Shown here piece after piece: positions 31,896-58,238 of a DNA stretch of 62,077 nt. A program made the position numbers and the translations under genes. The stretch spans positions 72,415 through 134,491 of the forward strand of contig JBBTQY010000010.1 in the NCBI GenBank assembly GCA_038065475.1, in the 5' to 3' direction. Source of the DNA: Patescibacteria group bacterium. GTDB lineage: Bacteria > Patescibacteriota > Minisyncoccia > Ryanbacterales > GWA2-47-10b. The first letter of the stretch is position 1; every line of letters starts with the position of its first letter. The notes beneath the pieces were generated by a model. It had not been told where the DNA came from, did no database searches, and saw nothing but the letters and a program-made list of their open reading frames with translations.

Positions 31896-31966
31896 TGGGG
31901 GATCGTCTAATGGTAGGACAGCGCCCTTTGGAGGCGTTTATCGGGGTTCGAATCCCTGTCCCCCAG
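31896..31966 (+). tRNA. tRNA-Gln (anticodon UUG)
   Basis: Hand-folded: acceptor TGGGGGA/TCCCCCA (U1:A72), discriminator G, anticodon stem GCGCC/GGCGT with loop CTTTGGA, T arm CGGGG-TTCGAAT-CCCTG. CCA is not encoded. Confidence 0.9.
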
Positions 31967-32125
31967 CTAACGAGAGTTTCAGTTAAAAATCAGTAGAGCC
32001 TCTATATTTCTCAACAACTTTTTAAGTTTTTTGGTTCGAGTCCTAGGTGGTTTGATGGTTTTAGGATTCGAACTTTAGTGACATATAAAGCGCAAGCGAT
32101 GAGCTGATGCAATAGAGGATCAGTG
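31967..32125 (+). repeat. R1 arm repeat (homologous to 33789-33935)
   Basis: Shared blocks are TCAGTrGAGC..CTATATTT, GAGTCCTArG..TTTTAGGATTCGAA and GACATATAArGCG..GATGCAAT. It includes a T-loop-like GGTTCGAGTCC. Confidence 0.7.
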
Positions 32126-32272
32126 AGGTTAGTAAAGATATTTTTTGTCGTAGATATTTTCTCGCTCGGAAGTTTTTTGTCTTCAATACTGAATGTGCTC
32201 AAGAGCTTGTAATTTATTGTCGAATTGTAATTCGAGCGGAACATAAACAGTTTTCGTTGATATTCGGGCATA

Positions 32273-32301
32273 TTGACATTTATATATTTTTGTATTATAA
32301 T
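32273..32301 (+). promoter_or_regulatory. Perfect consensus sigma70 promoter (TTGACA - 17 nt - TATAAT)
   Basis: TTGACATTTATATATTTTTGTATTATAAT, 66 nt upstream of the ATG at 32367. Confidence 0.75.
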
Positions 32302-32366
32302 CGTTTCAGAAAAAATTGGGGAATCCTCCCCGTAGGAAGCTTGAAAATCTAACTGAGGAGATTCGG

Positions 32367-33551
32367 ATGAATTTGTTGTCGCTCGTATTCGTGGCGGTCC
32401 TTGCTCTTTCCGGTTCGACCCAGGCGAGTGCGGAAACCTCCGTGCCCACCCCAACCCCGATCGTCTCGCCGGCCCTAGACCCGGAGATGTGCGAAGGAGA
32501 GTTCGAAATCTTCTCGACTTTGCCGTTCATCGTCGACGAAGGATCAGATCCCGATGGAGATCTCGATCCGACCATCGGCAATACTCTGACGTGGAAGGAT
32601 GGCGGCTTCACAATCGCCATTCCTTGCGGAGAACTCGAGGGCGTGGAGTTCATCGTCCTGACAAACTCCGGTACCCATACCTTGCGCCTCAAGCCCGGCA
32701 AGACTCCGAAGAAGACCGGACGAATCAACCTCATCTCCGGTGATACTGCGGAGGCGCTCTTCGAGGCAAAGATCACTAACACCCGATTCGGCCAAAACGT
32801 CATCGTCGAGGCTGATGTGTTCCCCTCAGAGGTCAACCCAAACTCCGAGGTCCAGGTGCTTCACGCTCCTTACACGGCGAGTGGTCACAAGATTGCCACG
32901 ATCGCAGATCTCATGAAGATCAAGGGGTCGACCTGGCACGTCACGATGAATGATGTCGATGTGCTGTTCGCCGATCTTGCTCCCGGCGTCCTGGTTCCCG
33001 AGCGGCAAGATGTTCCTAGCGAGCTTCTCAAGGGGGCAACCATCGACGGATTCATCGATGGCCTTCGATTCGTCGATTCACTGGCGACAATCGTCGACAT
33101 GCTCGAGAGCAACTCCAGCATCTCTCTCGACACGCTCATGAATCTGAGCGTGCGGTTCCATGACTGGTATCTCGCCTTCGAGGTTGAATCACAACCGGCG
33201 CAAGAAGTCTTCGTGAAGGCAAACATCCAGCGCGCCGCCATCCTGTTCGCGCAAGTCGTCCCGGATTCAGTTACAGTCCAGTTCGTGACAACCGCTGGCA
33301 ACAAGGAGGCAGCATTGCAAAGTCTCCACCTCGGGTTCCTGCTCGATCAAAGATGGTACCTCGAGTGTGGGGAAGGCTGCCCTTACGCAGCTTTCTTCAC
33401 AGCGGATGGCAACATGAAGGAGGCAAAAGTTCGCGAGTCCCAGTGGTACGGTCGCCGCTGGGCAAAGGATGCCTGGGCGATGGACCTCATCGTCCCCGCG
33501 TTCCGTCGCGCGCTCCTCGAGCCACGACCTTTGCCGACTCCCAACAGCTAG
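32367..33551 (+). CDS. GC-rich secreted protein of unknown family
   Basis: The ATG at 32367 follows GAGGAG. Signal peptide MNLLSLVFVAVLALSGSTQASA. One sampled 60-nt line (32401-32460) is 39/60 G+C by hand count, against about 30/60 in rpoB. Confidence 0.75.
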   Translation: MNLLSLVFVAVLALSGSTQASAETSVPTPTPIVSPALDPEMCEGEFEIFSTLPFIVDEGSDPDGDLDPTIGNTLTWKDGGFTIAIPCGELEGVEFIVLTNSGTHTLRLKPGKTPKKTGRINLISGDTAEALFEAKITNTRFGQNVIVEADVFPSEVNPNSEVQVLHAPYTASGHKIATIADLMKIKGSTWHVTMNDVDVLFADLAPGVLVPERQDVPSELLKGATIDGFIDGLRFVDSLATIVDMLESNSSISLDTLMNLSVRFHDWYLAFEVESQPAQEVFVKANIQRAAILFAQVVPDSVTVQFVTTAGNKEAALQSLHLGFLLDQRWYLECGEGCPYAAFFTADGNMKEAKVRESQWYGRRWAKDAWAMDLIVPAFRRALLEPRPLPTPNS

Positions 33552-33586
33552 ATATCCTGACGGCAACGCCTGTCAGGTCGCACACT

Positions 33587-33627
33587 CCCCAGGAGTACCG
33601 CAAGGTGCTCCTGGGGAATTTTCTTTT
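33587..33627 (+). terminator. Strong intrinsic terminator of the element 1 gene
   Basis: CCCCAGGAG - 12-nt loop - CTCCTGGGG followed by AATTTTCTTTT. Confidence 0.8.
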
Positions 33628-33655
33628 CAGTATGAGTGCTCATTGAACCTAAAAA

Positions 33656-33788
33656 GGAATCTGTCGAGCTTGGCTCCAAACTTACTTGACCCTCCAAGGA
33701 TTCGAAGTCTCAAGCTGGTAATTCCGAGGGGAAAGACTATAATTCAAGCCAAAGATGGGTTGAGAGTTCGAATCTTACGCCATCAGCT
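33656..33788 (+). repeat. C1 arm repeat (133 nt) ending in a tRNA-Gln-like 3' end
   Basis: It aligns without gaps to 37697-37829, with 112/133 identical by hand count. The last 76 nt (33713-33788) have tRNA length and a 7-bp acceptor-like pairing, but no anticodon arm. Confidence 0.85.
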
Positions 33789-33935
33789 AAGGAAAGCTAG
33801 GTTCAGAGTCAGTGGAGCGCCTATATTTTAAGCCATTTTTTGGACATCGAATTTGAGTCCTAAGAGGTTGATGCTTTTAGGATTCGAAATTCAGCGACAT
33901 ATAAGGCGTAAATGATAAGCCGATGCAATGGAGAA
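33789..33935 (+). repeat. R2 arm repeat (homologous to R1)
   Basis: See R1. Here the repeat runs into the intact start codon of the 33928 gene. In R1 the corresponding ATG is ATA. Confidence 0.7.
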
Positions 33936-34479
33936 TCAAGAAAGACTTCAAGACTACGAATTAAGCGCTAATCAATGGCAGCGCTGGCTTTTCAGCGCTG
34001 AAAGTGTTCTGAAGGCATCATATTTTTTACAGAAGATACATGACGAAGCATTTGAGAAAATAAAATCTGCCGGGCCAGGAGGAGGGACTGCCCCGCATGG
34101 TTTTGGGTTAGACCAGCAATCTCGTTATTTTAAAGGCAAGTCGCTCGAGCTCTATCTAAAATGCCTATTTATTAAGTCCGGAAAACTTATAACAAATGGG
34201 AGGGGTACACTTACACTTAAAACGCATAACCTAGTAGATCTTGCATCGAAAGTTTCATTTAAGCTTTCTTTGGAAGAAACAAATACATTGAATAAACTGA
34301 GCGACGCGGTAACTTTTTGGGGCACTTACCCAGTTCCTCTAAAGCATAAAAAATGGAGGCAAAATGTTCCGGGAATGGGAGGCATACAACCCGTGTATGT
34401 TTGGAGTGAAGCTGATGAGAATAACTTTTCTGCAGTTTTAGAGAGGGTGCAGAGGCTTGTCGGCCCTCTTACTTTTTAA
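33928..34479 (+). CDS. Alpha-helical protein, possibly HEPN/AbiV-like (tentative)
   Basis: 183 aa, low G+C. The pattern GKSLELYLKCLF...LKTHNLVDLASK resembles AbiV-type HEPN helices. The call rests on motif resemblance only. Confidence 0.6.
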   Translation: MENQERLQDYELSANQWQRWLFSAESVLKASYFLQKIHDEAFEKIKSAGPGGGTAPHGFGLDQQSRYFKGKSLELYLKCLFIKSGKLITNGRGTLTLKTHNLVDLASKVSFKLSLEETNTLNKLSDAVTFWGTYPVPLKHKKWRQNVPGMGGIQPVYVWSEADENNFSAVLERVQRLVGPLTF

Positions 34480-34638
34480 GTACCCCAATTATTTTTTTTA
34501 CTCGAATATCAATCTGGTTTAATGATTTTTGAGTTTAAATAAGTTAAAATTTTAAAGCGTGACGAATAAGCGTTATGCGATCAGTATGGGCAATCGGGCC
34601 CGCAGTTCTTTGACAATTAGTTGGTGAAGGGGACGAAG

Positions 34639-36234
34639 ATGAGAAGGCTTTTTGTATTGATCGGAATCTTGCTCGGGCTATTGAACACTAGCGCTCAGGC
34701 AAGTCAGTACATCTACCGAGAAGACTGGGAAAGCGGGTATACCGATTGGTCGTGGGCTTCGGTCAACTGCGCGAGCACTACGTATGTCTACGCAGGAACC
34801 AAGGCATGCCGCATCCACTACAATACGGCATGGCAAGGGTTCTTCGCTGGTCACTACATACCCACGCCTACCAACGGCTATGATTCTGTGACGTTCGCAA
34901 TCACAGCTGAGGGATCGTCGGTGAATGCCAGTACAATCATCCTGAAGTTTAAGGATGAGAGTCAGAACGACATCGGGAACGGAATATCCCTCTATTCCTA
35001 TGTCCCGTACAGCCCTTCGCAGGGCGGTCCCTATATCAATCCAGGAACATGGCGGGTGGTATCAGTGCCGCTCCAATGGCTTGGTGCCGTGAATCGTAAC
35101 ATTGGCGGACTCATGATCATGAGTTTCGTTGCGAATACCACGGTCCACATCGACAATCTCAAGCTGACGCATTCGGGCATCGGCATCCAGGGGACTTTCT
35201 ATTCCGATGGGCCCGGTCTTTCGGTCATTAATGAGTCTTGGCTCTCGACGAACGATGCATATCTTGGGGCACCACCGTTCTCAAGTAGCGATATCGTTCA
35301 CCAAGGAGCTCAAGTATTCCAAGCCGAATTTCTGGACCAGTACCAGAATGTGAAGCTACGGAGCACTACTGGTATCAACACGGGGGACAAAGAGTTTCTG
35401 ACATTTTGGGTACGAAGCTCGAATGGAGGAAACCTCCAATACCTTCAAGCGAGACTCTACGGTCTCTACAACACTCCCATCAATGGGCCGCTGTCTCTTG
35501 GCGATTATCTACTGAGTTCGCCGAGTAACGCGTGGATTCCGATCGTCATCCCGTTGGAGGATTTCTTTGACGGAGGTCAGTGGGTACCGGTTGAGTCGGT
35601 TTCTATCATCAGCAGTATCTCAAATCTCGGCATGGTCTACTTCGATGACATCGCGATCGCGAAGAAGGTATTCCGTATGCCGGTACCATCAGGGAAGCGC
35701 TGGCAGCTCACGATGTCTCCGGGTAACAGGCAGACAGAGTGTGAATATGATGCTGGGGCAGATCAGTCACACACCGATCCACCAACAAGTACTCTCTACA
35801 ACTACCATTCCTTCGATATCAATGACTACACCCTTGAGAATACCAACGAGTACAATGTTCCCGTATCCGCGGTTGGAGACGGGACAGTCGTTGAAGGGTG
35901 CTGGTCTCAATTTTGCCCCGCCTTCAGCAACAACGGTTACTATGTTGCCATCAACCATGGCGATGGGTATCAAAGTCGCTACCTACATTTCGCTGGGCCG
36001 CCATCTGTTTCTCTGAATCAATCAGTTGTTGTAGGCCAACAAATTGGTGTCCTAGGAGGGACGGGGTACGTGATTGGCGGACCCCACCTTCACATTGGAT
36101 TCCGATACAACGGCTCCGGAGGGCAGAGCGTCTCTCAGCTAGACTTGATACGAGTAGAGGGTCTTCCAATCAAGTCCTTCACGACGGAATGTGCTCCGAG
36201 TAGGTACTACTCTTCCTCGCCATACTGGTGGTAG
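34639..36234 (+). CDS. Secreted M23 (LytM-type) metallopeptidase with a long N-terminal beta-rich (CBM-like) region
   Basis: Signal peptide MRRLFVLIGILLGLLNTSAQA. M23 motifs are HSFDIND (HxxxD), YYVAINHGDGYQSRYLH and GGPHLHIGF (HxH). Confidence 0.87.
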   Translation: MRRLFVLIGILLGLLNTSAQASQYIYREDWESGYTDWSWASVNCASTTYVYAGTKACRIHYNTAWQGFFAGHYIPTPTNGYDSVTFAITAEGSSVNASTIILKFKDESQNDIGNGISLYSYVPYSPSQGGPYINPGTWRVVSVPLQWLGAVNRNIGGLMIMSFVANTTVHIDNLKLTHSGIGIQGTFYSDGPGLSVINESWLSTNDAYLGAPPFSSSDIVHQGAQVFQAEFLDQYQNVKLRSTTGINTGDKEFLTFWVRSSNGGNLQYLQARLYGLYNTPINGPLSLGDYLLSSPSNAWIPIVIPLEDFFDGGQWVPVESVSIISSISNLGMVYFDDIAIAKKVFRMPVPSGKRWQLTMSPGNRQTECEYDAGADQSHTDPPTSTLYNYHSFDINDYTLENTNEYNVPVSAVGDGTVVEGCWSQFCPAFSNNGYYVAINHGDGYQSRYLHFAGPPSVSLNQSVVVGQQIGVLGGTGYVIGGPHLHIGFRYNGSGGQSVSQLDLIRVEGLPIKSFTTECAPSRYYSSSPYWW

Positions 36235-36257
36235 GTTGAGCGAGTTCATGAATCACA

Positions 36258-36297
36258 GCGAGACGGGGGAAAGCCTCCGTCTCGCCATTTTATTTAT
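36258..36297 (+). terminator. Intrinsic terminator
   Basis: GCGAGACGGGGG-AAAG-CCTCCGTCTCGC followed by CATTTTATTT. Confidence 0.8.
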
Positions 36298-36400
36298 ACG
36301 GATTTTGTGATATAACCAAGGGGATGAATTGGTAAGAGGGCACGGAGAAAAAGCGGAGCTGGAAGCTTCCAAATCTAGGTCAGCTAACAATTACAAACAC

Positions 36401-37687
36401 ATGAAAGGCAAATATTACAATATAGTTGGCATAGCAGCCGTATTTATTGTTGCGGTAGCTGCTTTCTATGCTTTTACTTCAAAGAATGATGCGGCGATAA
36501 AAGAGGATGTCACAAAAAATGATGTTGAAGTGATAAAAAGCCTTGTAATAGATTTTGGTAAAAAAATGCAAATGGTCCCTCTCGCAAGCTCTCCGGAGAT
36601 AGTTCAGAAGGCAGTAAAAGAAAACTACGGACCTTTCGTGGGGGGCGATCTCTTGGCTGTATGGGAACATATTCCCTCAACGATACCTGGTAGAACGGCT
36701 TCCAGTCCTTGGCCTGACCGTATTGAAATCGACTCAGTCACGCAAAGACTAAAACATCTCTACACTGTAAAAGGCAGAGTGATTGAAATAACAAGCAAAG
36801 AGGTTGCCAGTGGGGGTATTGCTTCTTCATATCCAGTAACTATACAGGTGGCACGGCGTGGCGATTGGGTCATCACTGGTTTCATCAAGGGATATTACTT
36901 GGAAGGCGCTCGAGATATTTCCATAGATAGCGTGGTCGCTTGTTTACCCCATAAAGGAGATGATTCTAAGACATTAGAATGCGCAATTGGCGCAAAAGGA
37001 GATGACGGACTTTACTATTCGCTTGATACAACTGAGGTTGTCACCCCCGTTTTTCAAAATATTCCCATAGGAAATCGTGTCGCGATTGAGGGCAAGCTCA
37101 TACCTATCGAGACTCTAAGTAGCGATCATTGGTACCAGTACGATATTAAGGGTATTATCCGTGCGAAAAAAATCATTGATTTTGACAATATAACTTGGCG
37201 TACTTACCAAAACGCGGAGGTTGGGTTATCACTTTCTTATCCGCAAGAGCTTATGAGCGGTGAATTCAGGATCACTACAGGAGAGACGGGTCGAATTTTT
37301 AGTGGAGGTCTCAATTTTTCTTATTCTCAATACCACCTTGCAGCAATTACGGAAGATTATTCTGTCTCCAAAGGTGGAAGCTGGGTAGTGGGACTTGGTT
37401 ATACAGAGAGAGAAGGTAAATACTTTCTTGTAAATAAAAAAGGGGAGGGGTACGAGGTAAAACCAAGTGAATTTTGGCCCACAAACAAAGGGCTTGGAAA
37501 AGCGCTTGTATTATACAGCAGCGACTTTCCTCCAGGGGAAGGGGATGGATATTATGCTCCTTCAATCTTAGTTGTTGTGAATCTGCCAGGCGATTTCCCC
37601 GGATTACGGATTGAAGGTAGGGGAGAAAAGGTGTCTGATTTTGACGTACAAACTTTAAAGAAATTAGTAGGTTCCATTACCTTCTAG
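36401..37687 (+). CDS. Membrane-anchored protein of unknown function
   Basis: The probable start is MKGKYYNIVGIAAVFIVAVAAFYAF (TM anchor). About 400 aa of extracytoplasmic sequence follows. Low G+C. Confidence 0.68.
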   Translation: MKGKYYNIVGIAAVFIVAVAAFYAFTSKNDAAIKEDVTKNDVEVIKSLVIDFGKKMQMVPLASSPEIVQKAVKENYGPFVGGDLLAVWEHIPSTIPGRTASSPWPDRIEIDSVTQRLKHLYTVKGRVIEITSKEVASGGIASSYPVTIQVARRGDWVITGFIKGYYLEGARDISIDSVVACLPHKGDDSKTLECAIGAKGDDGLYYSLDTTEVVTPVFQNIPIGNRVAIEGKLIPIETLSSDHWYQYDIKGIIRAKKIIDFDNITWRTYQNAEVGLSLSYPQELMSGEFRITTGETGRIFSGGLNFSYSQYHLAAITEDYSVSKGGSWVVGLGYTEREGKYFLVNKKGEGYEVKPSEFWPTNKGLGKALVLYSSDFPPGEGDGYYAPSILVVVNLPGDFPGLRIEGRGEKVSDFDVQTLKKLVGSITF

Positions 37688-37696
37688 GGTACTGCA

Positions 37697-37829
37697 GGAG
37701 TCTGTTGAGCTCGGCTCCGAACTCACCTGACCCTCCAAGGACTCGGACCAGCAAGCTGGTAATTCCGAGGGGAAAGACCATAATTCAAGCCAAAGATGGT
37801 CTGGGAGTCCGAATCTCACTCTATCAGCC
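37697..37829 (+). repeat. C2 arm repeat (133 nt), second copy of C1
   Basis: It starts 10 nt after the stop of the 36401 gene and ends in CTATCAGCC (tRNA-Gln-like 3' end). Confidence 0.85.
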
Positions 37830-37978
37830 AACTTGAGACAAGTTCGGTATCTGAGGAGTATAATTTAAAATCAATATGGCAGGAAAAAAGAAGCAACCGG
37901 AAGAGGTAAAATAGCTCTTATTCCTAAACCTATTTTATGGTAATCTTTCTTTATAAATAACCGTAGGAGGTAAACGCA

Positions 37979-38653
37979 ATGAAATTATTTGTTTCTCTAA
38001 GTTTTGACGACGGTTGGAAGAGCGCTATTATGAGTGCCTATCCGCTTCTTGAAAAGTACCGAATGCCCGCAACATTCTATATCATTTCTGATCGCCTCAC
38101 GGATGAGCATTCAGAATACATGAGCCCGGAAGATCTTCGCGTGCTTGCCTCTCACGACCATGAGCTTGGTGTGCACACACGATCACATAAGCATCTTCCC
38201 GATTTGGATGATAAGGAGCTGGGATATGAGATAAACCAAGGACTCGACGACTTACTTGTCTTAGGCTTTAAGCCTCGCACATTTGCCTATCCGTATGGAG
38301 ACTGGAATCCTCACGTGGTAAAGCAAGTACGAGAAGCCGGTTTCTTTGCCGCCCGATCCATAGAACGTGGTATGAATGATGAACGAACGAATCATCTCTT
38401 ACTTCGAGGTAATGGAGTACGGGAAGATCATACGGCAGATGATGTAAAAGGTTGGATTCGTGAAGCTGCAAAAACTGGAGGATGGCTTATCCTTTATTTT
38501 CATCAAATAGAACAAGCAGAAGTGCTTCGCGAACGAAAGTGGATTTACGGCACTACTCCTCAAGTTCTCGAAGAAGTTCTGCGTTTTCTTCAGAGTGAAC
38601 AAATCCCGACTATGACGGTTGAGAAGGGGATGGAACACCTGCTGGCAGTTTGA
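37979..38653 (+). CDS. Polysaccharide deacetylase (NodB/CE4 family)
   Basis: LSFDDGW, HTRSHKHL and FAYPYGDWN motifs. Strong AGGAGG RBS. Confidence 0.87.
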   Translation: MKLFVSLSFDDGWKSAIMSAYPLLEKYRMPATFYIISDRLTDEHSEYMSPEDLRVLASHDHELGVHTRSHKHLPDLDDKELGYEINQGLDDLLVLGFKPRTFAYPYGDWNPHVVKQVREAGFFAARSIERGMNDERTNHLLLRGNGVREDHTADDVKGWIREAAKTGGWLILYFHQIEQAEVLRERKWIYGTTPQVLEEVLRFLQSEQIPTMTVEKGMEHLLAV

Positions 38654-39150
38654 TACAAAAACAATTTTCGGATGTTATCTGGTGTACGCCTCCTCAAACA
38701 TTTCACATTACCTTGCTCGATTGGATAGCTCCTCTTGTAGATTATGGAAGAGAAAAGGAACAAGTTTTCCAAGAAATATTCTTAAGTTATGATAAGGCGC
38801 TTCAAGATATTCTTGCCAAAGAAAAACCTTTTACTATAGACTTCTCAGAAATTCGAGTAAGCGAAGGAGCTATTATACTTTTTGGGCATGATAACGGAAC
38901 ATTTCAAAGAATGCGAAAAGCGTTTACCGATGTAATAACTCTTATCCCAGGAACAAAACCGCCTGCCCAAATTGTGCATTCCACTGTTTGTCGTTATCAA
39001 AAAGAAGTAGATTTATCTCCAATTCAAGAATTTGTAGCCAAGCAACAAATCCAAATAATTCAACCAATCAATGAATTCAGGCTTATTCATGAAACTACTG
39101 TTCCCATGTTGGAGTTTGAAGTGGTTAAAATATACAAAGTAGCAAAATGA
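38650..39150 (+). CDS. 2H phosphoesterase superfamily protein (LigT/cyclic phosphodiesterase-like)
   Basis: Two HxT/S motifs, FHITLL and VHSTVC, at the expected spacing. The apparent start is a TTG overlapping the upstream stop. Confidence 0.68.
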   Translation: MIQKQFSDVIWCTPPQTFHITLLDWIAPLVDYGREKEQVFQEIFLSYDKALQDILAKEKPFTIDFSEIRVSEGAIILFGHDNGTFQRMRKAFTDVITLIPGTKPPAQIVHSTVCRYQKEVDLSPIQEFVAKQQIQIIQPINEFRLIHETTVPMLEFEVVKIYKVAK

Positions 39151-39806
39151 AACCAGACACAATAATTATTCTTGGCGGAGGAACCAATGGAACTCTCAAA
39201 CCTGTTCTGTATACGGAGGAAAGGATAAAAGCTCTATCTAAACTTTATAAAAAATACCTCCGGACTCCCATCATTGTAAGTGGAGGATATTCCACATGGA
39301 TGAAATTTAAGCCGAAGTATAGAGAAGCCGATGTAATGCAGAACTACCTTATAAAGCAGGGTATCCCGAAAGATGTAATTCTTGTTGAAAGAAAGTCTCG
39401 CGATACCATTGGCAATATATATTTCTCAAAACAAATCGTAAAAAAGCATCCAAGCTGGAAAAATATCTTAATTATTACTACGAAGGGACATGAGGAGAGA
39501 AGCAAGCAATCACTCAAGAAAGTGTTTGGCAAAAAGTATAAGTTCTCATTTATCGGTGTACCTACACAATTAGCTTCATTTCGTAATAACCCAAACCGTA
39601 AAAAGTACGAACGTCATATCCAGCGGATTATTTTTGAAAGATTTTTCAAACATTGTAAAGATGGAGATGATAAAACCTTCTGGAAAATTATGAAAAAATA
39701 TCATCCTGCTCATTCACGATCAAAAGAAGCAAAAGAGCTTGCAAGAGAAATTACTGCCGCAAAGCTCAAATATCTTGGGTATACAGAGCTAAAGGTACAA
39801 AAGTAG
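39147..39806 (+). CDS. YdcF/ElyC-like DUF218 protein
   Basis: IIILGGG, VSGGY and SRDTIGN motifs. Confidence 0.78.
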   Translation: MKPDTIIILGGGTNGTLKPVLYTEERIKALSKLYKKYLRTPIIVSGGYSTWMKFKPKYREADVMQNYLIKQGIPKDVILVERKSRDTIGNIYFSKQIVKKHPSWKNILIITTKGHEERSKQSLKKVFGKKYKFSFIGVPTQLASFRNNPNRKKYERHIQRIIFERFFKHCKDGDDKTFWKIMKKYHPAHSRSKEAKELAREITAAKLKYLGYTELKVQK

Positions 39807-39851
39807 CTACTAAACAATGATTTTTTAGTTCTACCATGGTAGGCTTTTAGT

Positions 39852-40523
39852 ATGAAATCCCATAAATACCTCGGTCTCATAACGACTCTGTATATAGCCT
39901 TTCAACTCATTTCGGACGTAACGGCAGGCAAGATAGTCCAACTGGGTATTTTTACCGTTTCGGCCACTGTCCTATATTTTCCTATAACCTATATCTTTTC
40001 TGACATCCTTACGGAAGTATACGGCTACGCAAAAGCTCGAAGTGTCGTATGGCAGGCGCTACTCGCTTCAGTAATTGCAGGCTTTATCTACCAATTGGTT
40101 GTATGGCTACCGGCAGCTACAGGCTTTGATGCTAATGATGCATATACTCGTGTTCTTGGTTCCGTGCCGCGTATTCTTCTTGGAGGTTGGATTGCGGTAT
40201 GGGTAGGGGGAATTCTCAATGACTATACTCTCGCCAAAATGAAAATATGGTCAAAAGGAAAGCATTTATGGCTGAGAACAATTACATCTACCATTATCGG
40301 CGAAGGAGCAAATACGATTCTATTTTACACAATTGCTCTCTATGCTGTACTTCCAAATAATTTACTTGTTAGCTCAATTTTTTCTGGGTGGTTCTTGAAA
40401 ACGCTCGTTGAAATAATCTTTACTCCCGTAACTTATTACGTAGTTGCAAAACTCAAAAAAGCAGAACATGAAGACTACTACGATACGAATACAAACTTTA
40501 ATCCGCTTATAATAAAGTCTTAG
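39852..40523 (+). CDS. yhhQ: Queuosine-precursor transporter family (YhhQ/DUF165, VUT family)
   Basis: Polytopic. The N-terminal signature is FQLISDVTAGKIV...YFPITYIFSDILTEVYGY. Confidence 0.83.
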   Translation: MKSHKYLGLITTLYIAFQLISDVTAGKIVQLGIFTVSATVLYFPITYIFSDILTEVYGYAKARSVVWQALLASVIAGFIYQLVVWLPAATGFDANDAYTRVLGSVPRILLGGWIAVWVGGILNDYTLAKMKIWSKGKHLWLRTITSTIIGEGANTILFYTIALYAVLPNNLLVSSIFSGWFLKTLVEIIFTPVTYYVVAKLKKAEHEDYYDTNTNFNPLIIKS

Positions 40524-40550
40524 TAAGAGGCATGAGTATAGATCTACCGT

Positions 40551-40958
40551 ATGAGAAAAACTCGAAGTAATATAAAAGGCAAAAAATCTCAATTTCGTTG
40601 TATTATTCATGGTAGTTTTCGAAAGCATTTCAATGAGATAAAAAAAATCCATACCCTTTTTACAAAAGCAGGAATTGAGGTTTTAGCTCCTTCGCTGTCA
40701 GAAATTAAAAGTGTAAAAGATGGCTTTGCCTTTCTTGAAAGCGACAAGGAGAAAGATCCTCGGCTTATTGAGCTTCTTTACCTTCATAACTTAAAAAAAC
40801 TAGGGGCTGATGGTTTTAGCTATTTTGTAAATCCTGAAGGGTACCTTGGCAGAAGCGTTTCTTACGAATTAGGTATTGCTCAAATCTCCAATACTCCTTG
40901 CTTTTTCATGGAGCAACCAGCGGATCATCCGGTATACGCTCCCCGCAATGCGGTATAG
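40551..40958 (+). CDS. Nucleoside 2-deoxyribosyltransferase-like Rossmann protein (tentative)
   Basis: 135 aa. IIHGSFRKH...GRSVSYELGIA resembles the NDT/PTD-type GxxxExG loop. The call rests on motif resemblance only. Confidence 0.45.
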   Translation: MRKTRSNIKGKKSQFRCIIHGSFRKHFNEIKKIHTLFTKAGIEVLAPSLSEIKSVKDGFAFLESDKEKDPRLIELLYLHNLKKLGADGFSYFVNPEGYLGRSVSYELGIAQISNTPCFFMEQPADHPVYAPRNAV

Positions 40959-40967
40959 AGTCCAGAA

Positions 40968-41498
40968 TTGCTTACTGAATATATTTGTGAGAATAAAAAA
41001 ATGCCAGAGCCGTGCATTAAAAGAAACGAACGGTTGATTCATGCATTGTGGGAAGATCTAATGGTGCCTGGTTCTGTCGTTGCCGTAGGCGGAATTATAG
41101 AGTATACCAATACCAGAAAAAGGGAAAAAGAGATTTTGCTCGTAAAAACACATAAGTGGGGTGGACGATTTTCAGTAGTAGGAGGCAAGGTACGGCGCAA
41201 CGAGCGGATTGAAGACGCATTACGAAGAGAAATTAGGGAAGAAACAGGGCTTAAATCTTCAGTGGGCGAGCATATTTGTACATTTGATCAGATTAGAAAT
41301 TCTGGCTATTACCAAAGTGGTACGCAGCATGTTTTTGTTGATAAGGTTGTTCGAGTGTCGAGCAAGCGGGTCCAGCTCAATGAAGAAGCTCAAGGATATA
41401 TTTGGATACCTGTAAAAAATGCTTTAAAAGAACTACCCATTGAACCTAATGCAAAACATACACTTGAGTTATATGCTCAGATGCGAAATGTAATCTAA
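40968..41498 (+). CDS. Nudix hydrolase
   Basis: Nudix box GGKVRRNERIEDALRREIREETGL. The start is either TTG at 40968 or ATG at 41001. Confidence 0.85.
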   Translation: MLTEYICENKKMPEPCIKRNERLIHALWEDLMVPGSVVAVGGIIEYTNTRKREKEILLVKTHKWGGRFSVVGGKVRRNERIEDALRREIREETGLKSSVGEHICTFDQIRNSGYYQSGTQHVFVDKVVRVSSKRVQLNEEAQGYIWIPVKNALKELPIEPNAKHTLELYAQMRNVI

Positions 41499-41562
41499 AA
41501 TGTATTCATGGAATCATCGAGATCCATAAAGTAAAGGAAACAATAATAAAATATAAGCATTT

Positions 41563-41958
41563 ATGAAAAACACAAAATTAGAGAAAAAACTTCTTGGTCG
41601 CGAATGGTGGAAGGGGTCAAAAGTGCTATCGGTTGCTGGTGTGCTCGGTGCACCAATGTTTTCTTCTAATATGACTGACGAAGAGAAAGAGAAGATTATT
41701 CAAAGTTGGAACACGATTGCCGTTATTGAGGCAAATCCTAAAAATATACCCTTCCATATTGGTTTTATCCGCGAAGATGATATTTGGATACTGAAATACC
41801 CCTTAGAGACTTTAGATGGTAAATTTGGCATGAGAGTTGGCCAAAATGACTTAAAGCTTTTTGGGATACATATTTCTGTTGAAGAAGCTATTCAGCTCTC
41901 ATTGGTGGAGGTTGTAGACGAAAAAGATCCTCGATATTCTGAGTTACCACTATATTAA
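41563..41958 (+). CDS. Hypothetical protein
   Basis: 131 aa with no recognisable motif. It is embedded between the Nudix and HIT genes. Confidence 0.55.
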   Translation: MKNTKLEKKLLGREWWKGSKVLSVAGVLGAPMFSSNMTDEEKEKIIQSWNTIAVIEANPKNIPFHIGFIREDDIWILKYPLETLDGKFGMRVGQNDLKLFGIHISVEEAIQLSLVEVVDEKDPRYSELPLY

Positions 41959-41966
41959 ATTTTCCC

Positions 41967-42380
41967 ATGAGCGACTTTTCAAAGTATGTTGTTAAAGATT
42001 ACACATTCTGGCATGTAGCAGTACACCCAAACCAAAGTTACCTTGGACGATGTGTTGTATGGTGTAAAAGGGAGGACGCTCTTGATTTAGCTGATGCTAC
42101 AAAAGAAGAACAAGAAGAACTATTTATCATCCTTCATGATTTACGAGAAGCATCTCAAAAAGCATTTCAGCCCGACTTGTTCAATTATGCTTTTTTAGGA
42201 AATATAGAGCGGCATCTGCACGGACATTTTATTCCGCGTTATTCTTCCCATCGTACATTTCATGGAAGATTTTTTACTGATGAAAGATGGGGCCAAAATT
42301 ACCAACCCGATGAAAGTTTTGAAGTGACCAAAGACCTGTGGGAAGCCGTTAGGTCAAAATTATTAGAGTTTTTGAAATAG
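41967..42380 (+). CDS. HIT-family nucleotide hydrolase/transferase
   Basis: Histidine triad HLHGHFIPRY. Confidence 0.85.
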   Translation: MSDFSKYVVKDYTFWHVAVHPNQSYLGRCVVWCKREDALDLADATKEEQEELFIILHDLREASQKAFQPDLFNYAFLGNIERHLHGHFIPRYSSHRTFHGRFFTDERWGQNYQPDESFEVTKDLWEAVRSKLLEFLK

Positions 42381-42419
42381 ATTAAAGATTTTCTAACTTA
42401 TACCTGATAGTATTTTGAT

Positions 42420-42941
42420 ATGGAAAAACTATTCGTCCTCACTGACAAAGATATTTTTCCCCATGCCACAGTGCCAGAAGATATATCTTACAAATTTCGC
42501 TTAGCCGCAAAACTTATTCTTTTTGATAAAGAAAATAAGTTAGCACTGGTTGGAATAAGATATAAGCTGCTTCCGGGTGGAGGTGTTGAAGAGGGCGAAA
42601 GTATGCCAGATGCCTTGATGCGCGAAGCACGAGAAGAAGTTGGATGCGATATAGAAGTGGGTAAAGAAATTGCAGTTACCGAAGAATTTAGAGCAAAAAT
42701 GAATAGACACCAAGAAACACATTTTTTTCTTGCTACCGTTGTAGGCGAAAAAGGGTTGCCTGAAACAACTCAAACATCTGAACAAGGAATGAAGGCTTAT
42801 TGGTATGATTTGGGTGAGGTAGTTGAGATATTAGAAAAAGAAGTAAAGGAAGCCCCTCCCGAGGATTATAGTGCCTGCTTTAATGCGAGAACTCATCTTG
42901 CCGTTCTGAAGGAACTATCTAAGTCAGATAAGCTGACGTAA
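42420..42941 (+). CDS. Nudix hydrolase
   Basis: Nudix box GGGVEEGESMPDALMREAREEVGC. Confidence 0.85.
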   Translation: MEKLFVLTDKDIFPHATVPEDISYKFRLAAKLILFDKENKLALVGIRYKLLPGGGVEEGESMPDALMREAREEVGCDIEVGKEIAVTEEFRAKMNRHQETHFFLATVVGEKGLPETTQTSEQGMKAYWYDLGEVVEILEKEVKEAPPEDYSACFNARTHLAVLKELSKSDKLT

Positions 42942-43184
42942 TTTTATCCGTCACTTTAGTAACGATAGACGTAATAGATTAATTTTGCTAATGTAACTTC
43001 TATCAAAGTTTAAATTAAAATCATGCTTCTCAAACATAACAAACAAACCTGGTCCAGTTTTACCCATAGACTCCTTAACTCTTCCGACTGAGAGGGCAGG
43101 CTTTGATATTTCAAAAGCCTCGAAATCTGCCCTGCTCGGGCGGATTTTTGTTTTGTCCTTTAACAACTTAAATAAGGAGGGCAT

Positions 43185-43790
43185 ATGATATTTCGTGCTG
43201 TAGGCAACAGATGTGCCGTTCATCTCAATTCGCTCAAGCTGCCAACTTCTCAACTAGAAACCCTCAGTATTCTTAGAGGAAAAGGATTTGAGACCATTGA
43301 AGTTGATATTCCCACAATCGCAAGAGGATTTGTAGGAAAAGCGAAATACAGAAGGGGAGCAAGATTATCGAAAGCTCCATCGGTATTCGACTGCTCAAGT
43401 TTTATGAAGTGGTTATACGCAGAGCGTGGTATCTGGCTACCTCGAAGAAGTATTCAGCAAAGGGAGGTTGGAACATTCATTCATTTCCAAGATATAGCAG
43501 CGTGCGACCTTTTGTTTACGACAGGCGCTCAAAATTACTTTTTTGATGACCCAGCCGATGGAGTTGGACATGTAGGCATAGTTACCGACAGAGAAACTGT
43601 CATTCATGCCGCTAACAGTAAAGTTGGCATAATTGAGACTCCTCTCCATTCATTTGTGAATGAGGAAAACTTTCGCGGTGCCCGACGAATTATCCCGGAG
43701 GCGTTAGAGGTAATTACCCTCATTACACCTCAAGGGAGGGAAGTAGAAACATCAGACGACATTCGCTGGATTGTACTTCAGTCTCTTTGA
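43185..43790 (+). CDS. NlpC/P60 (C40) cell-wall peptidase
   Basis: Strong RBS AAGGAGGG. Catalytic Cys context FDCSSFMKWLY, His context GHVGIV, and downstream HA. Confidence 0.85.
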   Translation: MIFRAVGNRCAVHLNSLKLPTSQLETLSILRGKGFETIEVDIPTIARGFVGKAKYRRGARLSKAPSVFDCSSFMKWLYAERGIWLPRRSIQQREVGTFIHFQDIAACDLLFTTGAQNYFFDDPADGVGHVGIVTDRETVIHAANSKVGIIETPLHSFVNEENFRGARRIIPEALEVITLITPQGREVETSDDIRWIVLQSL

Positions 43791-43794
43791 ATTC

Positions 43795-43830
43795 AAAGAC
43801 GGTGAGATAACATCAAACCGTCTTTTATTT
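43795..43830 (+). terminator. Intrinsic terminator
   Basis: AAAGACGGT - loop - ACCGTCTTT followed by TATTT. Confidence 0.8.
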
Positions 43831-44220
43831 GTAAAAGAAGAGTCTTTTACAGTAGATAAAAAAATCGCTCCCTTCTTAGTAAGACAACCTAATGGGTACT
43901 TGTTCCACCCGCCGGGGGTCATTTCCGGGAGTACCGGGGGTGTTTAGAAAAGTTCGAGAGTAAATACGTTTAAGTGAGCTTTTGAGAGGATCTATGGCTT
44001 CAGACCCATACCTTCTGATAGACTATAAAAATAAGCAGGACGAATTAGTGAGTTAATTCAAGGACATTTTGGAGGGTAAGCATAGGAAACTCAACCAGCT
44101 CAACCCATCCAGGAGTTCGTAAATCGTTCACTGCTGCCAGCCAACTCGTGAGGCGCTCGAAACGCCTTAAAATAAGGATTTTTTGACCCTCAAAATCAAC
44201 GACGGGTCTAGGATTCGAAC

Positions 44221-44263
44221 CATAAACAAGAAAGGACCCGCTCGCTGTTGCGATTGGGTCCTT
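44221..44263 (-). terminator. Probable intrinsic terminator of the GC-rich minus-strand cassette
   Basis: Minus strand: AAGGACCC - loop - GGGTCCTT followed by TCTTGTTTAT. Confidence 0.55.
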
Positions 44264-44314
44264 GAACGGATGATGTTGTGGCCTCCATTCTGGCCGGTTT
44301 GTGAGTGTTCGTAG

Positions 44315-44791
44315 TCAGCAGCGCGCGCTCGTCCAGCGCTTGACGCCGTCCCACGCGCTCATAACCATCCCCACGATGATGAACAGCACGAGAGCTGCCA
44401 TGAAGATGTAGAACGAGCTCGCGTACCGATGCATGTTGATGAGTGAGCCCGCTTTCTCGAAGCCGATCTTGTCGAGGAGCGCCGCACTCCAGTGGAGGAT
44501 GATCGGTAGGAGGCTGTAGAGTGTCCATCCCCAGAAGAACCGAAGGTAGATCTGCATCATTGGCTCGTCGCTCCTGGTGAATGCCGCGCGCCAGTTCCAG
44601 GACAGAGTCCCGCCCCTGGGCCGGATCACCTCGGCGAAAATCGCCGCCATGAACCAGACGAAGAGGAATGCCGGAGCTGCGAAGGCCACGACCAGGAGCA
44701 TGTCCGCTCCATCCCACCCTGCCAAGAGGCAGTAGGGGATCGCCAGCAGCATACCTGCCAGCAGGTAGAGCGTTCCGAAAATGAAGTTCAT
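44315..44791 (-). CDS. GC-rich polytopic membrane protein (158 aa), unknown family
   Basis: The ATG at 44791 lies 9 nt after AAGGAG. About 4 TM helices. The longer listed ORF (to 44923) has an Arg-rich non-protein-like extension. Confidence 0.62.
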   Translation of the reverse strand: MNFIFGTLYLLAGMLLAIPYCLLAGWDGADMLLVVAFAAPAFLFVWFMAAIFAEVIRPRGGTLSWNWRAAFTRSDEPMMQIYLRFFWGWTLYSLLPIILHWSAALLDKIGFEKAGSLINMHRYASSFYIFMAALVLFIIVGMVMSAWDGVKRWTSARC

Positions 44792-44837
44792 CCACTTTCT
44801 CCTTGTCTCGACTCCACGTTTCCGTGAGGTGGGTTGG

Positions 44838-45251
44838 TTACCTGCCGAGCAGATAGATGGCCAGCGCCGCTGCCCCGAAGCCGAAGATCTGATGGGGGCT
44901 GAACGCCGAACCATTGAGAACACGATCCAAGATCGGTGCCCATACGACCATCATCATCGAGGTGATGACCACGATGACTCCGGTCGAGATCTGCGGGTCG
45001 GACGTCTTCATCGAATAGAAGAAGACGGCGACCCCATTGATCGCTCCTGCAGCTAGCAGAAGCGTGGCACCGCGTAGCGTTGGAGGAGTGGCGAGTGCTC
45101 TTCCCGAGAAGACCGCGACGAGCGTCAGCGTTCCCACGGAAGCGAGCACGCCAACCCATGCACCGGTGATGCCCGAGTACTTGCCGATGATCGGCCAGGT
45201 GACGAATGCGAGCGCAATGAGTGCCGCAGGCAGAACCATTCCGAAATTCAT
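44838..45251 (-). CDS. GC-rich 4-TM membrane protein (137 aa), half-size DMT/EamA-like (tentative)
   Basis: The ATG at 45251 lies 7 nt after AGGAGG. Four hydrophobic helices. Confidence 0.62.
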   Translation of the reverse strand: MNFGMVLPAALIALAFVTWPIIGKYSGITGAWVGVLASVGTLTLVAVFSGRALATPPTLRGATLLLAAGAINGVAVFFYSMKTSDPQISTGVIVVITSMMMVVWAPILDRVLNGSAFSPHQIFGFGAAALAIYLLGR

Positions 45252-45306
45252 CGTGTGCCTCCTGCCCAAAAGGGCGGTTGAGTTTCGAAGGACTAAATAC
45301 TTTGCA

Positions 45307-45335
45307 TACTGTACATTAAAATACTAATTTGTCAA
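45307..45335 (-). promoter_or_regulatory. Candidate promoter of the minus-strand cassette (TTGACA - 16 nt - TACAGT)
   Basis: The reverse complement contains TTGACAAATTAGTATTTTAATGTACAGT. Confidence 0.35.
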
Positions 45336-45369
45336 GTATAAAAAATAACCCATCTAGAGCAAAATTCTA

Positions 45370-45455
45370 GGCGCACGAGACCGGTTGGATTCCCAAACCC
45401 CCAGCTAACTAGAGCTAAGTTCGGAGTACAAGGAGCATTGGATTTGTTAAAATAA
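45370..45455 (+). repeat. Decayed tRNA-Gln 3' half plus downstream flank (distal att-like repeat)
   Basis: GGCGCACGAGACCGGTTGGATTCCCAAACCCCCAGCTAAC versus the tRNA GGCGTTTATCGGGGTTCGAATCCCTGTCCCCCAGCTAAC. The T stem no longer pairs. Confidence 0.65.
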
Positions 45456-58160: not shown

Positions 58161-58238
58161 GCTTTTGGCGTTGTAGTCGTCGCTGTTCCGTGTTATTTTT
58201 GATGCGGATTCCCAAACTCTCGGAAAGGGGAGGAACAA

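What the first reader, a model, noticed from the sequence alone, without database searches (positions are those of the whole stretch)
31896..45455. Serial accretion of three integrase-less islands at tRNA-Gln, marked by four copies of the tRNA 3' end
The intact tRNA-Gln(UUG) ends ...GGTTCGAATCCCTGTCCCCCAGCTAAC at 31966. Degenerate copies of this 3' end recur at three places. The first is 33770-33789 (AGTTCGAATCTTACGCCATCAGCTAAG). The second is 37811-37830 (AGTCCGAATCTCACTCTATCAGCCAAC). The third is 45370-45409 (GGCGCACGAGACCGGTTGGATTCCCAAACCCCCAGCTAAC), which retains about 35 nt back to the anticodon stem.

The 13.5 kb between the tRNA and the last copy splits into three blocks: 1.8, 4.0 and 7.6 kb. 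Each block has its own composition; sampled 60-nt lines range from about 40% to about 65% G+C, against about 50% in the core genes. Blocks 1 and 2 both start with the R repeat and end with the C repeat. That is the layout expected for attL - element - attP-like junction - element - attR after tandem site-specific integration. Block 3 is flanked by a different homologous pair, 37821-37875 and 45398-45455.

I can find no tyrosine or serine recombinase, transposase or excisionase in any frame of the ORF track. The elements would therefore have to be mobilised in trans (CIME-like) or be decayed. Tandem non-autonomous tRNA-targeting cassettes of this kind are, to my knowledge, not described for CPR-like genomes.
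Basis: partly seen in the sequence, partly recalled or inferred. Interest (0 to 1): 0.7.

Follow-up and report, generated by a model that had tools for sequence, protein, structure and literature searches.

The report
Decayed gene island beside tRNA-Gln
A 13.5-kb stretch of foreign-looking genes sits next to a glutamine tRNA gene in a tiny-genome (CPR) bacterium. It is divided by three worn copies of the tRNA's tail, the usual scar of repeated site-specific insertion, so it is real but ordinary, and nothing shows it can still move.

Summary
tRNA-Gln(UUG) is intact at 31896-31967. A repeat of about 55 nt, running from the T-loop to about 30 nt past the tRNA end, recurs at 33765, 37806 and 45383. 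The copies are significant directly (33765, 45383) or by linkage (37806).

Blocks 1 and 2 share a 160-nt left arm (R, 72% identity) and a 110-nt right arm (C, 85%). All 16 ORFs between the first and last repeat have aberrant GC3. Composition returns to normal immediately after the last repeat.

No recombinase is present in the island, in the rest of the window, or within 10 kb beyond it.

The best reading is a relic "additive" genomic island built by serial site-specific insertion at the tRNA 3' end. The two proximal modules are siblings. R1 still carries the dead start codon of the gene that follows R2.

This pattern is well known from Dehalococcoides ssrA islands, tycheposon islands, the Methylophilaceae tRNA-Lys island, and CIME accretion.

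Mobility in trans is untested. The repeats are 15-34% diverged. Every assembly of this organism is identical across the region. No close relative, empty site or other R/C copy was found. The composition mosaic is gene-by-gene, finer than three blocks.

It is a new member of a known kind, of modest interest.

The parts
31896..31967 (+). Intact tRNA-Gln(UUG), the anchor. Its T-loop and 3' end form repeat copy 1.
   Evidence: ARAGORN; Rfam RF00005 at 61 bits.
31945..32000 (+). J1: repeat copy 1, running from the T-loop through the tRNA 3' end to about 30 nt downstream.
   Evidence: the repeat finder D2; alignment.
31968..32125 (+). R1: left arm of module E1. It contains a 13-bp hairpin (32035-32072) built from T-loop-like motifs. 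It ends in ATAGAGGATCAGTGA, a dead version of the start of the gene that follows R2.
   Evidence: blastn 72% over 177 nt, E 7e-19; RNAalifold hairpin; sequence reading.
32273..33617 (+). Cargo of E1, a self-contained unit. It has a perfect TTGACA-17-TATAAT promoter (32273-32301), a 394-aa secreted ORFan (32367-33551, GC3 0.70) and a 14-bp terminator (33586-33617).
   Evidence: only 2 distant hits among 1.8 billion representative proteins.
33655..33764 (+). C1: right arm of E1.
   Evidence: blastn 84.6% over 136 nt, E 6e-39, against 37696-37831.
33765..33819 (+). J2: repeat copy 2. C1-J2-R2 (33655-33938) is the attP-like junction.
33790..33938 (+). R2: left arm of E2. It contains a hairpin (33852-33888) and the start codon of the 183-aa gene at 33928.
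33928..37687 (+). Cargo of E2. A 183-aa protein with a weak HEPN-like fold (33928-34479). An M23 peptidase (34639-36234) with its own terminator (36258-36285). A 428-aa membrane-anchored protein of unknown function (36401-37687). GC3 values are 0.36, 0.59 and 0.36.
   Evidence: Pfam; GC3; terminator; structure and Foldseek.
37696..37805 (+). C2: right arm of E2. It starts 9 nt after the stop codon of the 428-aa gene.
37806..37860 (+). J3: repeat copy 3.
   Evidence: Significant only through its link to J2.
37979..43790 (+). Block 3a: ten or eleven same-strand, low-GC genes (GC3 0.25-0.38). They are a polysaccharide deacetylase, a 166-aa unknown, DUF218, Vut_1, a 135-aa unknown, NUDIX, a 131-aa unknown, a HIT-like protein, NUDIX and NlpC/P60.
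   Evidence: Pfam; GC3.
44204..44221 (-). An isolated exact T-loop motif, GGTTCGAATCC, on the minus strand at the low-GC/high-GC boundary. It may be a stray fragment of another tRNA.
   Evidence: 0 mismatches; nhmmer E 0.89, which is weak.
44315..45251 (-). Block 3b: two high-GC minus-strand ORFs of unknown function (GC3 0.78 and 0.73).
   Evidence: no family hits.
45383..45437 (+). J4: repeat copy 4, the distal boundary. Composition is normal from the next gene (45460) onward.
   Evidence: blastn 81% over 32 nt, E about 0.003; SW score 20 against a null maximum of 17; GC3.

Best explanation
The interval 31945-45437 is a relic additive genomic island. It grew by repeated site-specific insertion of circular DNA at the 3' end of tRNA-Gln(UUG).

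Each insertion left a copy of the shared att segment at its far end. That segment is about 55 nt, from the T-loop to about 30 nt past the tRNA end. I infer that the crossover lies at or just past the tRNA end, near the shared CAGCTAA. On that reading the T-arm-like part of J2 and J3 comes from the elements' attP and not from the tRNA.

The two proximal modules, E1 (1.8 kb) and E2 (4.0 kb), belong to one element family. They share a left arm R and a right arm C. The junction C1-J2-R2 is therefore a reconstituted attP of about 285 nt. E1 derives from an E2-like element whose cargo was replaced by a single promoter-gene-terminator unit.

The distal 7.6 kb is one or more older insertions, later remodelled.

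The recombinase is encoded elsewhere or has been lost. Given the divergence of the repeats, the array is most likely fixed and decaying.

What is shown: the repeats and their significance, the shared arms, the aberrant composition, and the absence of a recombinase. What is inferred: integrase-mediated origin, the position of the crossover, the order of events, and immobility.
For: The tRNA is intact. The four-member repeat family is significant and is confined to this interval. tRNA-Ala, as a control, has no partial copies.

The R and C arms are shared by blocks 1 and 2.

J2 and J3 share derived states relative to the tRNA: A at position 1, TCTyAC, ATCAGC. This fits copies inherited from related attP sites and does not fit independent decay.

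R1 keeps the dead start of the 183-aa gene.

All 16 ORFs inside deviate from the window background GC3 of 0.477 +/- 0.059, each by at least 1.6 SD in either direction. Composition is normal immediately after J4.

The cargo is of accessory type. It includes an ORFan, and a 183-aa protein with only 2 homologues, which sit among HTH, PemK and GIY-YIG genes.

T-loop-like motifs are clustered in both orientations in the arms: 10 of the window's 19 hits fall in 22% of its length.

The same architecture is documented elsewhere. In tycheposon islands, partial tRNAs separate adjacent elements and newcomers push older ones inward (10.1101/2020.12.28.424599). Dehalococcoides ssrA islands are a second case (PMC3146451). 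The Methylophilaceae additive island has recurring tRNA-Lys 3' repeats (PMC10872708).
Against: - No integrase, excisionase or pseudogene fragment was detected in the island, the window or 10 kb beyond it.
- The repeats are only 66-81% identical to the tRNA end. J3 is not significant on its own.
- No empty site or variant was seen. All assemblies of this organism are identical here.
- The nearest relatives are only 50-55% identical in the flank protein and are not syntenic.
- No other member of the R/C family was found in viral contigs or metagenome contigs.
- The compositional boundaries are finer than the repeat-defined blocks. Other processes, such as gene replacement or illegitimate insertion, must also have acted.
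Confidence: 0.6

Rival explanations
1. The island at tRNA-Gln is real, but the E1/E2 pair arose in place. Unequal crossing-over or slippage between two flanking repeats duplicated one R...C module. Cargo replacement in the proximal copy followed. No second integration event is needed.
For: R1 retains the first codons, now dead, of the gene that follows R2. This is what a duplicated copy with its interior replaced would look like. J2 and J3 share derived states. RecA is encoded in the window.
Against: R arms (72%) and C arms (85%) differ in divergence although a single duplication would give them the same age. The result is structurally indistinguishable from tandem integration of a sibling element. 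The model does not explain J4 or the foreign composition of everything in between.
Confidence: 0.2
2. E1 and E2 are still functional integrase-less cassettes (CIME-like). A recombinase encoded elsewhere in the genome, or by a helper element, recognises the T-arm-like inverted repeats in R and C. It can excise or insert the cassettes through the shared CAGCTAA core.
For: An intact attP-like junction of about 285 nt carries paired inverted T-loop-like motifs on both arms. The central 48 nt of C carry 1 change, although the 21 changes over all 136 nt would predict several; permutation p = 0.013. That suggests constraint. The 7-nt CAGCTAA is identical in J1, J2 and J4.
Against: No recombinase lies within about 80 kb. 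The repeats are strongly diverged, and J3 reads CAGCCAA. No variant, empty site or further family member was found. The conserved core of C could equally be a gene-conversion tract or a promoter.
Confidence: 0.12
3. C plus the repeat (about 135 nt) is a structured non-coding RNA or processing signal. It ends in a tRNA-like acceptor/T-arm minihelix and was duplicated along with neighbouring genes. Its likeness to the tRNA end reflects function, for example recognition by RNase P, RNase Z or the CCA-adding enzyme, and not att-site history.
For: RNAalifold on the two copies predicts 33 pairs. None is broken, 2 changes are compensatory and 6 are one-sided compatible. The 3' domain has a 5-bp acceptor-like stem plus a 5-bp T-like stem with a 7-nt loop. 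The core is conserved.
Against: There are only two sequences, and the structure was chosen on those same sequences. Single-sequence folds are not better than shuffles (z -0.7 to -1.4). There is no Rfam match. No third copy exists in the window or in other CPR loci. The model does not explain J4, the R arms or the foreign composition.
Confidence: 0.08
4. The partial tRNA copies are chance resemblances driven by the near-palindromic T-loop motif, and the region is ordinary core DNA.
For: GGTTCGAATCC-like 11-mers with up to 2 mismatches are not enriched window-wide: 19 found against 16.9 expected. J1 vs J3 alone is not significant.
Against: J1-J2 has E 7e-19, J2-J3 has E 6e-39, and J1-J4 exceeds every one of 100 null searches. 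The copies are co-oriented, intergenic and confined to the one compositionally aberrant interval that starts at the tRNA.
Confidence: 0.02

Closest known systems
Additive flexible genomic islands next to tRNA genes, e.g. fGI-2 of 'Ca. [quoted passage not shown]
   Same: A streamlined genome. An island begins at a tRNA. Recurring direct copies of the tRNA 3' end divide it into cassettes of very different size. The genes are mostly hypothetical or accessory. No integrase is reported inside.
   Different: The repeats here are longer (about 55 nt, extending past the tRNA end) and much more diverged. Two cassettes share long arms (R and C). Strain-to-strain variability, which defines a flexible island, could not be tested here.
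Dehalococcoides ssrA-specific genomic islands (PMC3146451)
   Same: Tandem islands lie downstream of a single small-RNA gene, separated by direct repeats of its 3' end. A conserved motif next to the repeat does not align with the RNA gene. Several of the tandem islands lack an integration module, and the authors suggest these might be cis-mobilizable or fixed.
   Different: The target there is tmRNA and the repeat is 20 bp. Many islands carry a serine-recombinase module (dsiB) at attL, and mobility is supported by comparing strains. No recombinase or strain comparison is available here.
Tycheposon-built islands of Prochlorococcus (10.1101/2020.12.28.424599)
   Same: A tRNA-anchored island. Adjacent elements are separated only by a partial tRNA. 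Newcomers push older elements inward. Degenerate remnants and stray partial tRNAs are scattered through the island.
   Different: Tycheposons are defined by a tyrosine (or large serine) recombinase and often a replication module. None is present here.
CIMEs and accretion-mobilisation: ICESt1/CIME of Streptococcus thermophilus, tRNA-Lys composites of S. agalactiae (reviewed in PMC5704250)
   Same: Elements that have lost their integration and transfer genes but keep attL and attR, sitting in tandem with related elements at the 3' end of a target gene.
   Different: A CIME is recognised by att sites that a related ICE or IME integrase still uses. No such partner, and no evidence that the sites still work, exists here. 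CPR bacteria are not known to carry ICE-type conjugation modules (my own knowledge, not tested).

Membership tests
tRNA-anchored genomic island (site-specific, additive) | Starts at an intact tRNA gene | tested here: met
   tRNA-Gln(ttg) at 31896-31967.
tRNA-anchored genomic island (site-specific, additive) | A direct repeat of the tRNA 3' end lies at the distal boundary, and between modules | tested here: met
   J2, J3 and J4. J4 scores 20 against a null maximum of 17.
tRNA-anchored genomic island (site-specific, additive) | Composition differs from the surrounding genome | tested here: met
   All 16 ORFs lie outside +/-1.6 SD of the background GC3. Composition is normal right after J4.
tRNA-anchored genomic island (site-specific, additive) | An integrase gene, intact or as a remnant, is in or beside the island | tested here: not met
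   Pfam, PHROGs, NCBIfam and PADLOC on all island ORFs. None in the window or 10 kb beyond. The 183-aa protein beside R2 has a weak HEPN-like fold and is not a recombinase.
tRNA-anchored genomic island (site-specific, additive) | Variable presence among related strains (empty site or alternative cargo) | tested here: inconclusive
   Only identical assemblies of the same organism exist. The nearest relatives share 50-55% amino-acid identity and show no synteny.
CIME (cis-mobilizable element) | Flanked by attL and attR and lacking integration and transfer genes | tested here: met
   Repeats flank E1 and E2, and there are no such genes.
CIME (cis-mobilizable element) | The att sites are still recognised by the integrase of a related autonomous element (excision or cis-mobilisation) | not testable with these tools
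   This needs read-level junction detection or an assay. No related autonomous element was found.
Tycheposon | Element-encoded tyrosine or large serine recombinase at the tRNA-proximal end | tested here: not met
Integron cassette array / CALIN | Cassettes separated by attC sites: imperfect palindromes of 55-140 nt with R''/L''-L'/R' boxes, unrelated to tRNA | tested here: not met
   The junction repeats are homologous to the tRNA 3' end plus its flank. Single-strand folds are not better than shuffles. E1 carries its own promoter and terminator. IntegronFinder itself was not run.
tRNA pseudogene / tandem tRNA duplication | Similarity covers the tRNA body, including the 5' half | tested here: not met
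   ARAGORN and Rfam find no pseudo-tRNA at the copies. Similarity begins at the T-loop.

The most novel reading that the evidence does not exclude
C1-J2-R2 (33655-33938) is the working attP of a family of integrase-less gene cassettes in CPR bacteria. A recombinase encoded elsewhere, a host Xer-type or a helper element's enzyme, binds the T-arm-like inverted repeats and swaps cassettes at tRNA-Gln. The structured C arm, with its tRNA-like minihelix, would be part of the recognition or regulation. This would be a trans-mobilised cassette system in a lineage thought to be poor in mobile elements.
Probability: 0.1. Interest if true: 0.6.

Novelty: new member of a known kind. Interest (0 to 1): 0.33.

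Why it matters
CPR/Patescibacteria have very small genomes, and few mobile elements have been described in them. I found no paper in the searchable library that describes tRNA-anchored islands in this group.

This locus shows that the classical route also operates, or once operated, in a Paceibacteria-like genome. That route is insertion at a tRNA 3' end, tandem accretion, and then decay.

The route delivered cell-wall hydrolases (M23, NlpC/P60), a polysaccharide deacetylase, a queuosine-precursor transporter, NUDIX enzymes and orphan secreted proteins. These are plausible tools for an episymbiotic lifestyle.

A second CPR contig (L016) shows a duplicated tRNA-Leu 3' end beside a homologue of the same deacetylase, which hints that such scars are not unique.

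The practical value is a repeat profile and two arm sequences that can be used to screen CPR genomes and reads. Conceptually it adds little beyond known island biology unless mobility in trans is shown.

Tried and rejected
- **Known structured RNA.** Rfam at E<=5 found nothing at C or R. Single-sequence folds are not better than shuffles.
- **C as coding sequence.** The six-frame comparison of the two copies shows a conserved in-frame TGA in one frame and no intact ORF common to both. The apparent third-position bias in the first 50 nt is equally explained by compensatory changes in a hairpin.
- **More C or R copies.**
  - Viral contigs gave 0 hits.
  - The metagenome 20-mer scan gave 2 chance hits inside an unrelated gene.
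  - The covariance model R1 found nothing more in the window or in 9 other CPR loci.
  - The extension of 10 kb on each side was also negative.
- **Empty site in relatives.**
  - The genome-contig scan returned one Nomurabacteria locus at 50% identity, with other tRNAs upstream.
  - The best homologues of the flank protein are at most 55% identical and are not syntenic.
- **Population variants.** The Logan contigs of ERR3858121 tile the region exactly. They break at 31901-31921 (inside the tRNA) and at 43127-43156 (a terminator hairpin). These are most simply de Bruijn graph breaks at a conserved tRNA and at a palindrome, not variant junctions.
- **Cargo synteny elsewhere.** Homologues of the 183-aa protein and of the deacetylase sit in unrelated contexts.
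- **Cryptic recombinase.** The 183-aa protein next to R2 was modelled (pLDDT 76). It matches only HEPN-domain folds, and weakly. PADLOC found nothing.
- **Further decayed repeats.** A possible fifth copy lies at 36362-36388 (an exact TCAGCTAAC at the M23/428-aa boundary), and a minus-strand T-loop motif lies at 44204-44221. Neither reaches significance.

Full report
**Origin of the window.** The window matches contig CAYHMH010000001.1 (465 kb) of assembly GCA_964357775.1. Logan contigs of runs ERR3858120 and ERR3858121 also match it, at 99.99-100% identity. Homologues of the flanking protein carry source names such as Candidatus Nomurabacteria, Kaiserbacteria and Paceibacterota.

ARAGORN and Rfam confirm an intact tRNA-Gln(UUG) at 31896-31967. 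The repeat finder recovers the four-member family at 31945, 33765, 37806 and 45383, with spacings of 1820, 4041 and 7577 nt.
- The tRNA T-arm plus downstream R arm (31946-32122) aligns to 33766-33938 at 72% over 177 nt, E 7e-19.
- The C arm plus repeat (33655-33790) aligns to 37696-37831 at 84.6% over 136 nt, E 6e-39.
- The last copy (45383-45414) is 81% identical to the tRNA end, E about 0.003.
- In a Smith-Waterman test against 100 random 62-kb sequences, the best null score was 13.7 +/- 1.0 (maximum 17). J1-J2 scores 24 and J1-J4 scores 20. J1-J3 scores only 11, but J3 is tied to the family through J2.

All four copies align from the T-loop to about 30 nt beyond the tRNA end, following the pattern ...CAGCyAAs..GAG...AGTTC.G....GGAG. 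An nhmmer profile of the four finds no further copy in the window or in 10 kb on either side. The other tRNA in the window, tRNA-Ala, has no partial copies.

- Two coordinate pairs are about 5 nt off.
- The last copy does not detectably extend back to the anticodon stem.
- The 'different homologous pair' flanking block 3 is just the weakly conserved tail of the same repeat.

**Anatomy of the two proximal modules.** Blocks 1 and 2 have the same ends.

R is about 160 nt. It contains a conserved 13-bp hairpin whose arms are T-loop-like motifs, TTCGAGTCCTAGG ... TTTAGGATTCGAA. R2 ends with the start codon of the 183-aa gene (33928). At the homologous place R1 reads ATAGAGGATCAGTGA, a dead start followed by a stop. 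E1 is therefore a derivative of an E2-like module whose interior was replaced. The replacement is a self-contained unit with three parts:
- a perfect sigma-70 promoter (32273-32301);
- a 394-aa secreted protein with GC3 0.70 and essentially no homologues among 1.8 billion representative proteins;
- a 14-bp terminator.

C is about 110 nt and starts 9 nt after the stop codon of the last E2 gene. The two C+repeat copies support a common fold: 33 pairs, none broken, 2 compensatory changes and 6 one-sided compatible changes. The 3' domain is a 5+5-bp acceptor/T-arm-like minihelix. Their central 48 nt carry one change, against 21 over all 136 nt (permutation p = 0.013). With only two sequences this is suggestive and no more. 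Single-sequence folds are unremarkable, and neither Rfam nor a covariance model finds relatives.

J2 and J3 share derived states relative to the tRNA. They descend from a common, already tRNA-unlike ancestor. This is what related attP sites would give if the crossover lies at or beyond the tRNA 3' end, near the shared CAGCTAA.

**Composition.** Thirty-six ORFs outside the interval have GC3 of 0.477 +/- 0.059. All 16 ORFs inside lie at least 1.6 SD away, either low (0.25-0.38) or high (0.59-0.78). The first genes after J4 are normal again. The interval bounded by the first and last repeat is thus foreign in composition as a whole. The mosaic is finer than three blocks, however:
- E2 alternates 0.36 / 0.59 / 0.36.
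- Block 3 falls into a low-GC operon-like run (37.9-43.8 kb) and a high-GC minus-strand pair (44.3-45.25 kb).
- An isolated exact GGTTCGAATCC lies on the minus strand between those two parts.

**Gene content.** Pfam identifies an M23 peptidase, a polysaccharide deacetylase, DUF218, Vut_1, two NUDIX proteins, a HIT-like protein and NlpC/P60. The rest are unknowns.

No tyrosine or serine recombinase, transposase or excisionase appears in any library. None appears elsewhere in the window or in the 10 kb on either side. The 183-aa protein that occupies the integrase-typical position next to R2 models as a helical, weakly HEPN-like fold.

**Comparative evidence is thin.** The lineage has no close relative in the collections.
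- The best homologue of the flank protein is 55% identical, and its neighbourhood is different.
- The single genome-contig hit, a Nomurabacteria MAG at 50% identity, has other tRNAs upstream.
- Every contig of the same organism carries the identical arrangement.
- The Logan contig breaks at 31901-31921 and 43127-43156 are best explained by a conserved tRNA and a terminator palindrome.

Neither an empty site nor alternative cargo could be shown or excluded. The deacetylase has 64-66% identical homologues in other CPR contigs of both 40% and 57% G+C, with no synteny.

One of those contigs (L016) has a tRNA-Leu followed by three features: an inverted copy of its T-arm; 172 nt from the original, a direct 18/19 copy of its 3' end; and then the deacetylase homologue. 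This is an independent example of the same grammar in CPR.

**Interpretation.** The most economical model is serial site-specific insertion at the 3' end of tRNA-Gln. Two sibling modules lie nearest the tRNA and older material lies distally. Loss or absence of the recombinase, sequence decay and gene-level remodelling followed.

This is the architecture described for several systems:
- Dehalococcoides ssrA islands (PMC3146451);
- tycheposon-built islands (10.1101/2020.12.28.424599);
- the Methylophilaceae tRNA-Lys additive island (PMC10872708);
- CIME accretion (PMC5704250).

It works like these. It fails the membership tests that require an element-encoded recombinase, and the tests that require demonstrated variability or att-site function could not be run.

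The rivals are:
- in-situ duplication of one module (0.2; not exclusive with island origin);
- still-active trans-mobilised cassettes (0.12);
- a structured RNA role for C (0.08);
- chance (0.02).

**Verdict.** The feature is real and correctly spotted. It is a new member of a known kind, in a lineage where such islands have apparently not been described. Interest is modest unless read-level data reveal excision or cassette exchange.

Noticed in passing
L016:9677-10681 (also L017, L018): In another CPR contig (57% G+C), tRNA-Leu(cag) is followed by a terminator-like hairpin and an inverted copy of its T-arm (9808-9825). A direct 18/19 copy of its 3' end (9912-9930) lies 172 nt from the original, measured start to start. 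Seventy nt later comes a homologue (64% aa) of the window's polysaccharide deacetylase. This looks like a tRNA 3'-end duplication scar next to the same gene family.
   Followed up: partly
window 57609-59426: Two adjacent ORFs outside the finding are the only other strong composition outliers in the window: a 183-aa protein with GC3 0.36 and a cytochrome P450 with GC3 0.70. This may be another small foreign patch, with no tRNA nearby.
   Followed up: no
window 44208-44923 (-): The gene called in public annotations (44208-44795, 195 aa, GTG start) has GC3 0.47 in a 58% G+C stretch. The overlapping ORF 44315-44923 (202 aa) has GC3 0.78 and is more likely the real frame. The called ORF ends in ...WFES*, which is simply the T-loop motif GGTTCGAATCCTAG read as codons.
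   Followed up: partly
window 31901-31921 and 43127-43156: The Logan contigs of ERR3858121 break exactly here. L002 ends at 31921, L012 spans 31901-43156, and L004 starts at 43127. These are probably graph breaks at a conserved tRNA and at a terminator palindrome, but a minor variant sharing these k-mers cannot be excluded.
   Followed up: partly
window 36362-36388: An exact TCAGCTAAC, preceded by CTTCCAAATCT (compare GTTCGAATCT), lies between the M23 terminator and the 428-aa gene, at a GC3 boundary (0.59 to 0.36). It may be a fifth, heavily decayed repeat. It is not significant by the nhmmer profile.
   Followed up: partly
window 33711-33758 / 37752-37799: The central 48 nt of the C arm (CAAGCTGGTAATTCCGAGGGGAAAGACyATAATTCAAGCCAAAGATGG) differ at one position between the two copies, while the rest of C is about 23% diverged (permutation p = 0.013). 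The cause could be constraint, a promoter or gene conversion.
   Followed up: partly
window 32367-33551: The 394-aa secreted protein of block 1 is an orphan. phmmer against 1.84 billion representative proteins gives only two distant hits, to a repeat of about 65 residues in very large proteins.
   Followed up: yes
window 33928-34479: The 183-aa protein has only two homologues (39-41%) among 5.8 billion proteins. They lie among HTH, PemK-toxin and GIY-YIG genes (L014, L015). Its model (pLDDT 76) resembles HEPN-domain proteins weakly.
   Followed up: yes
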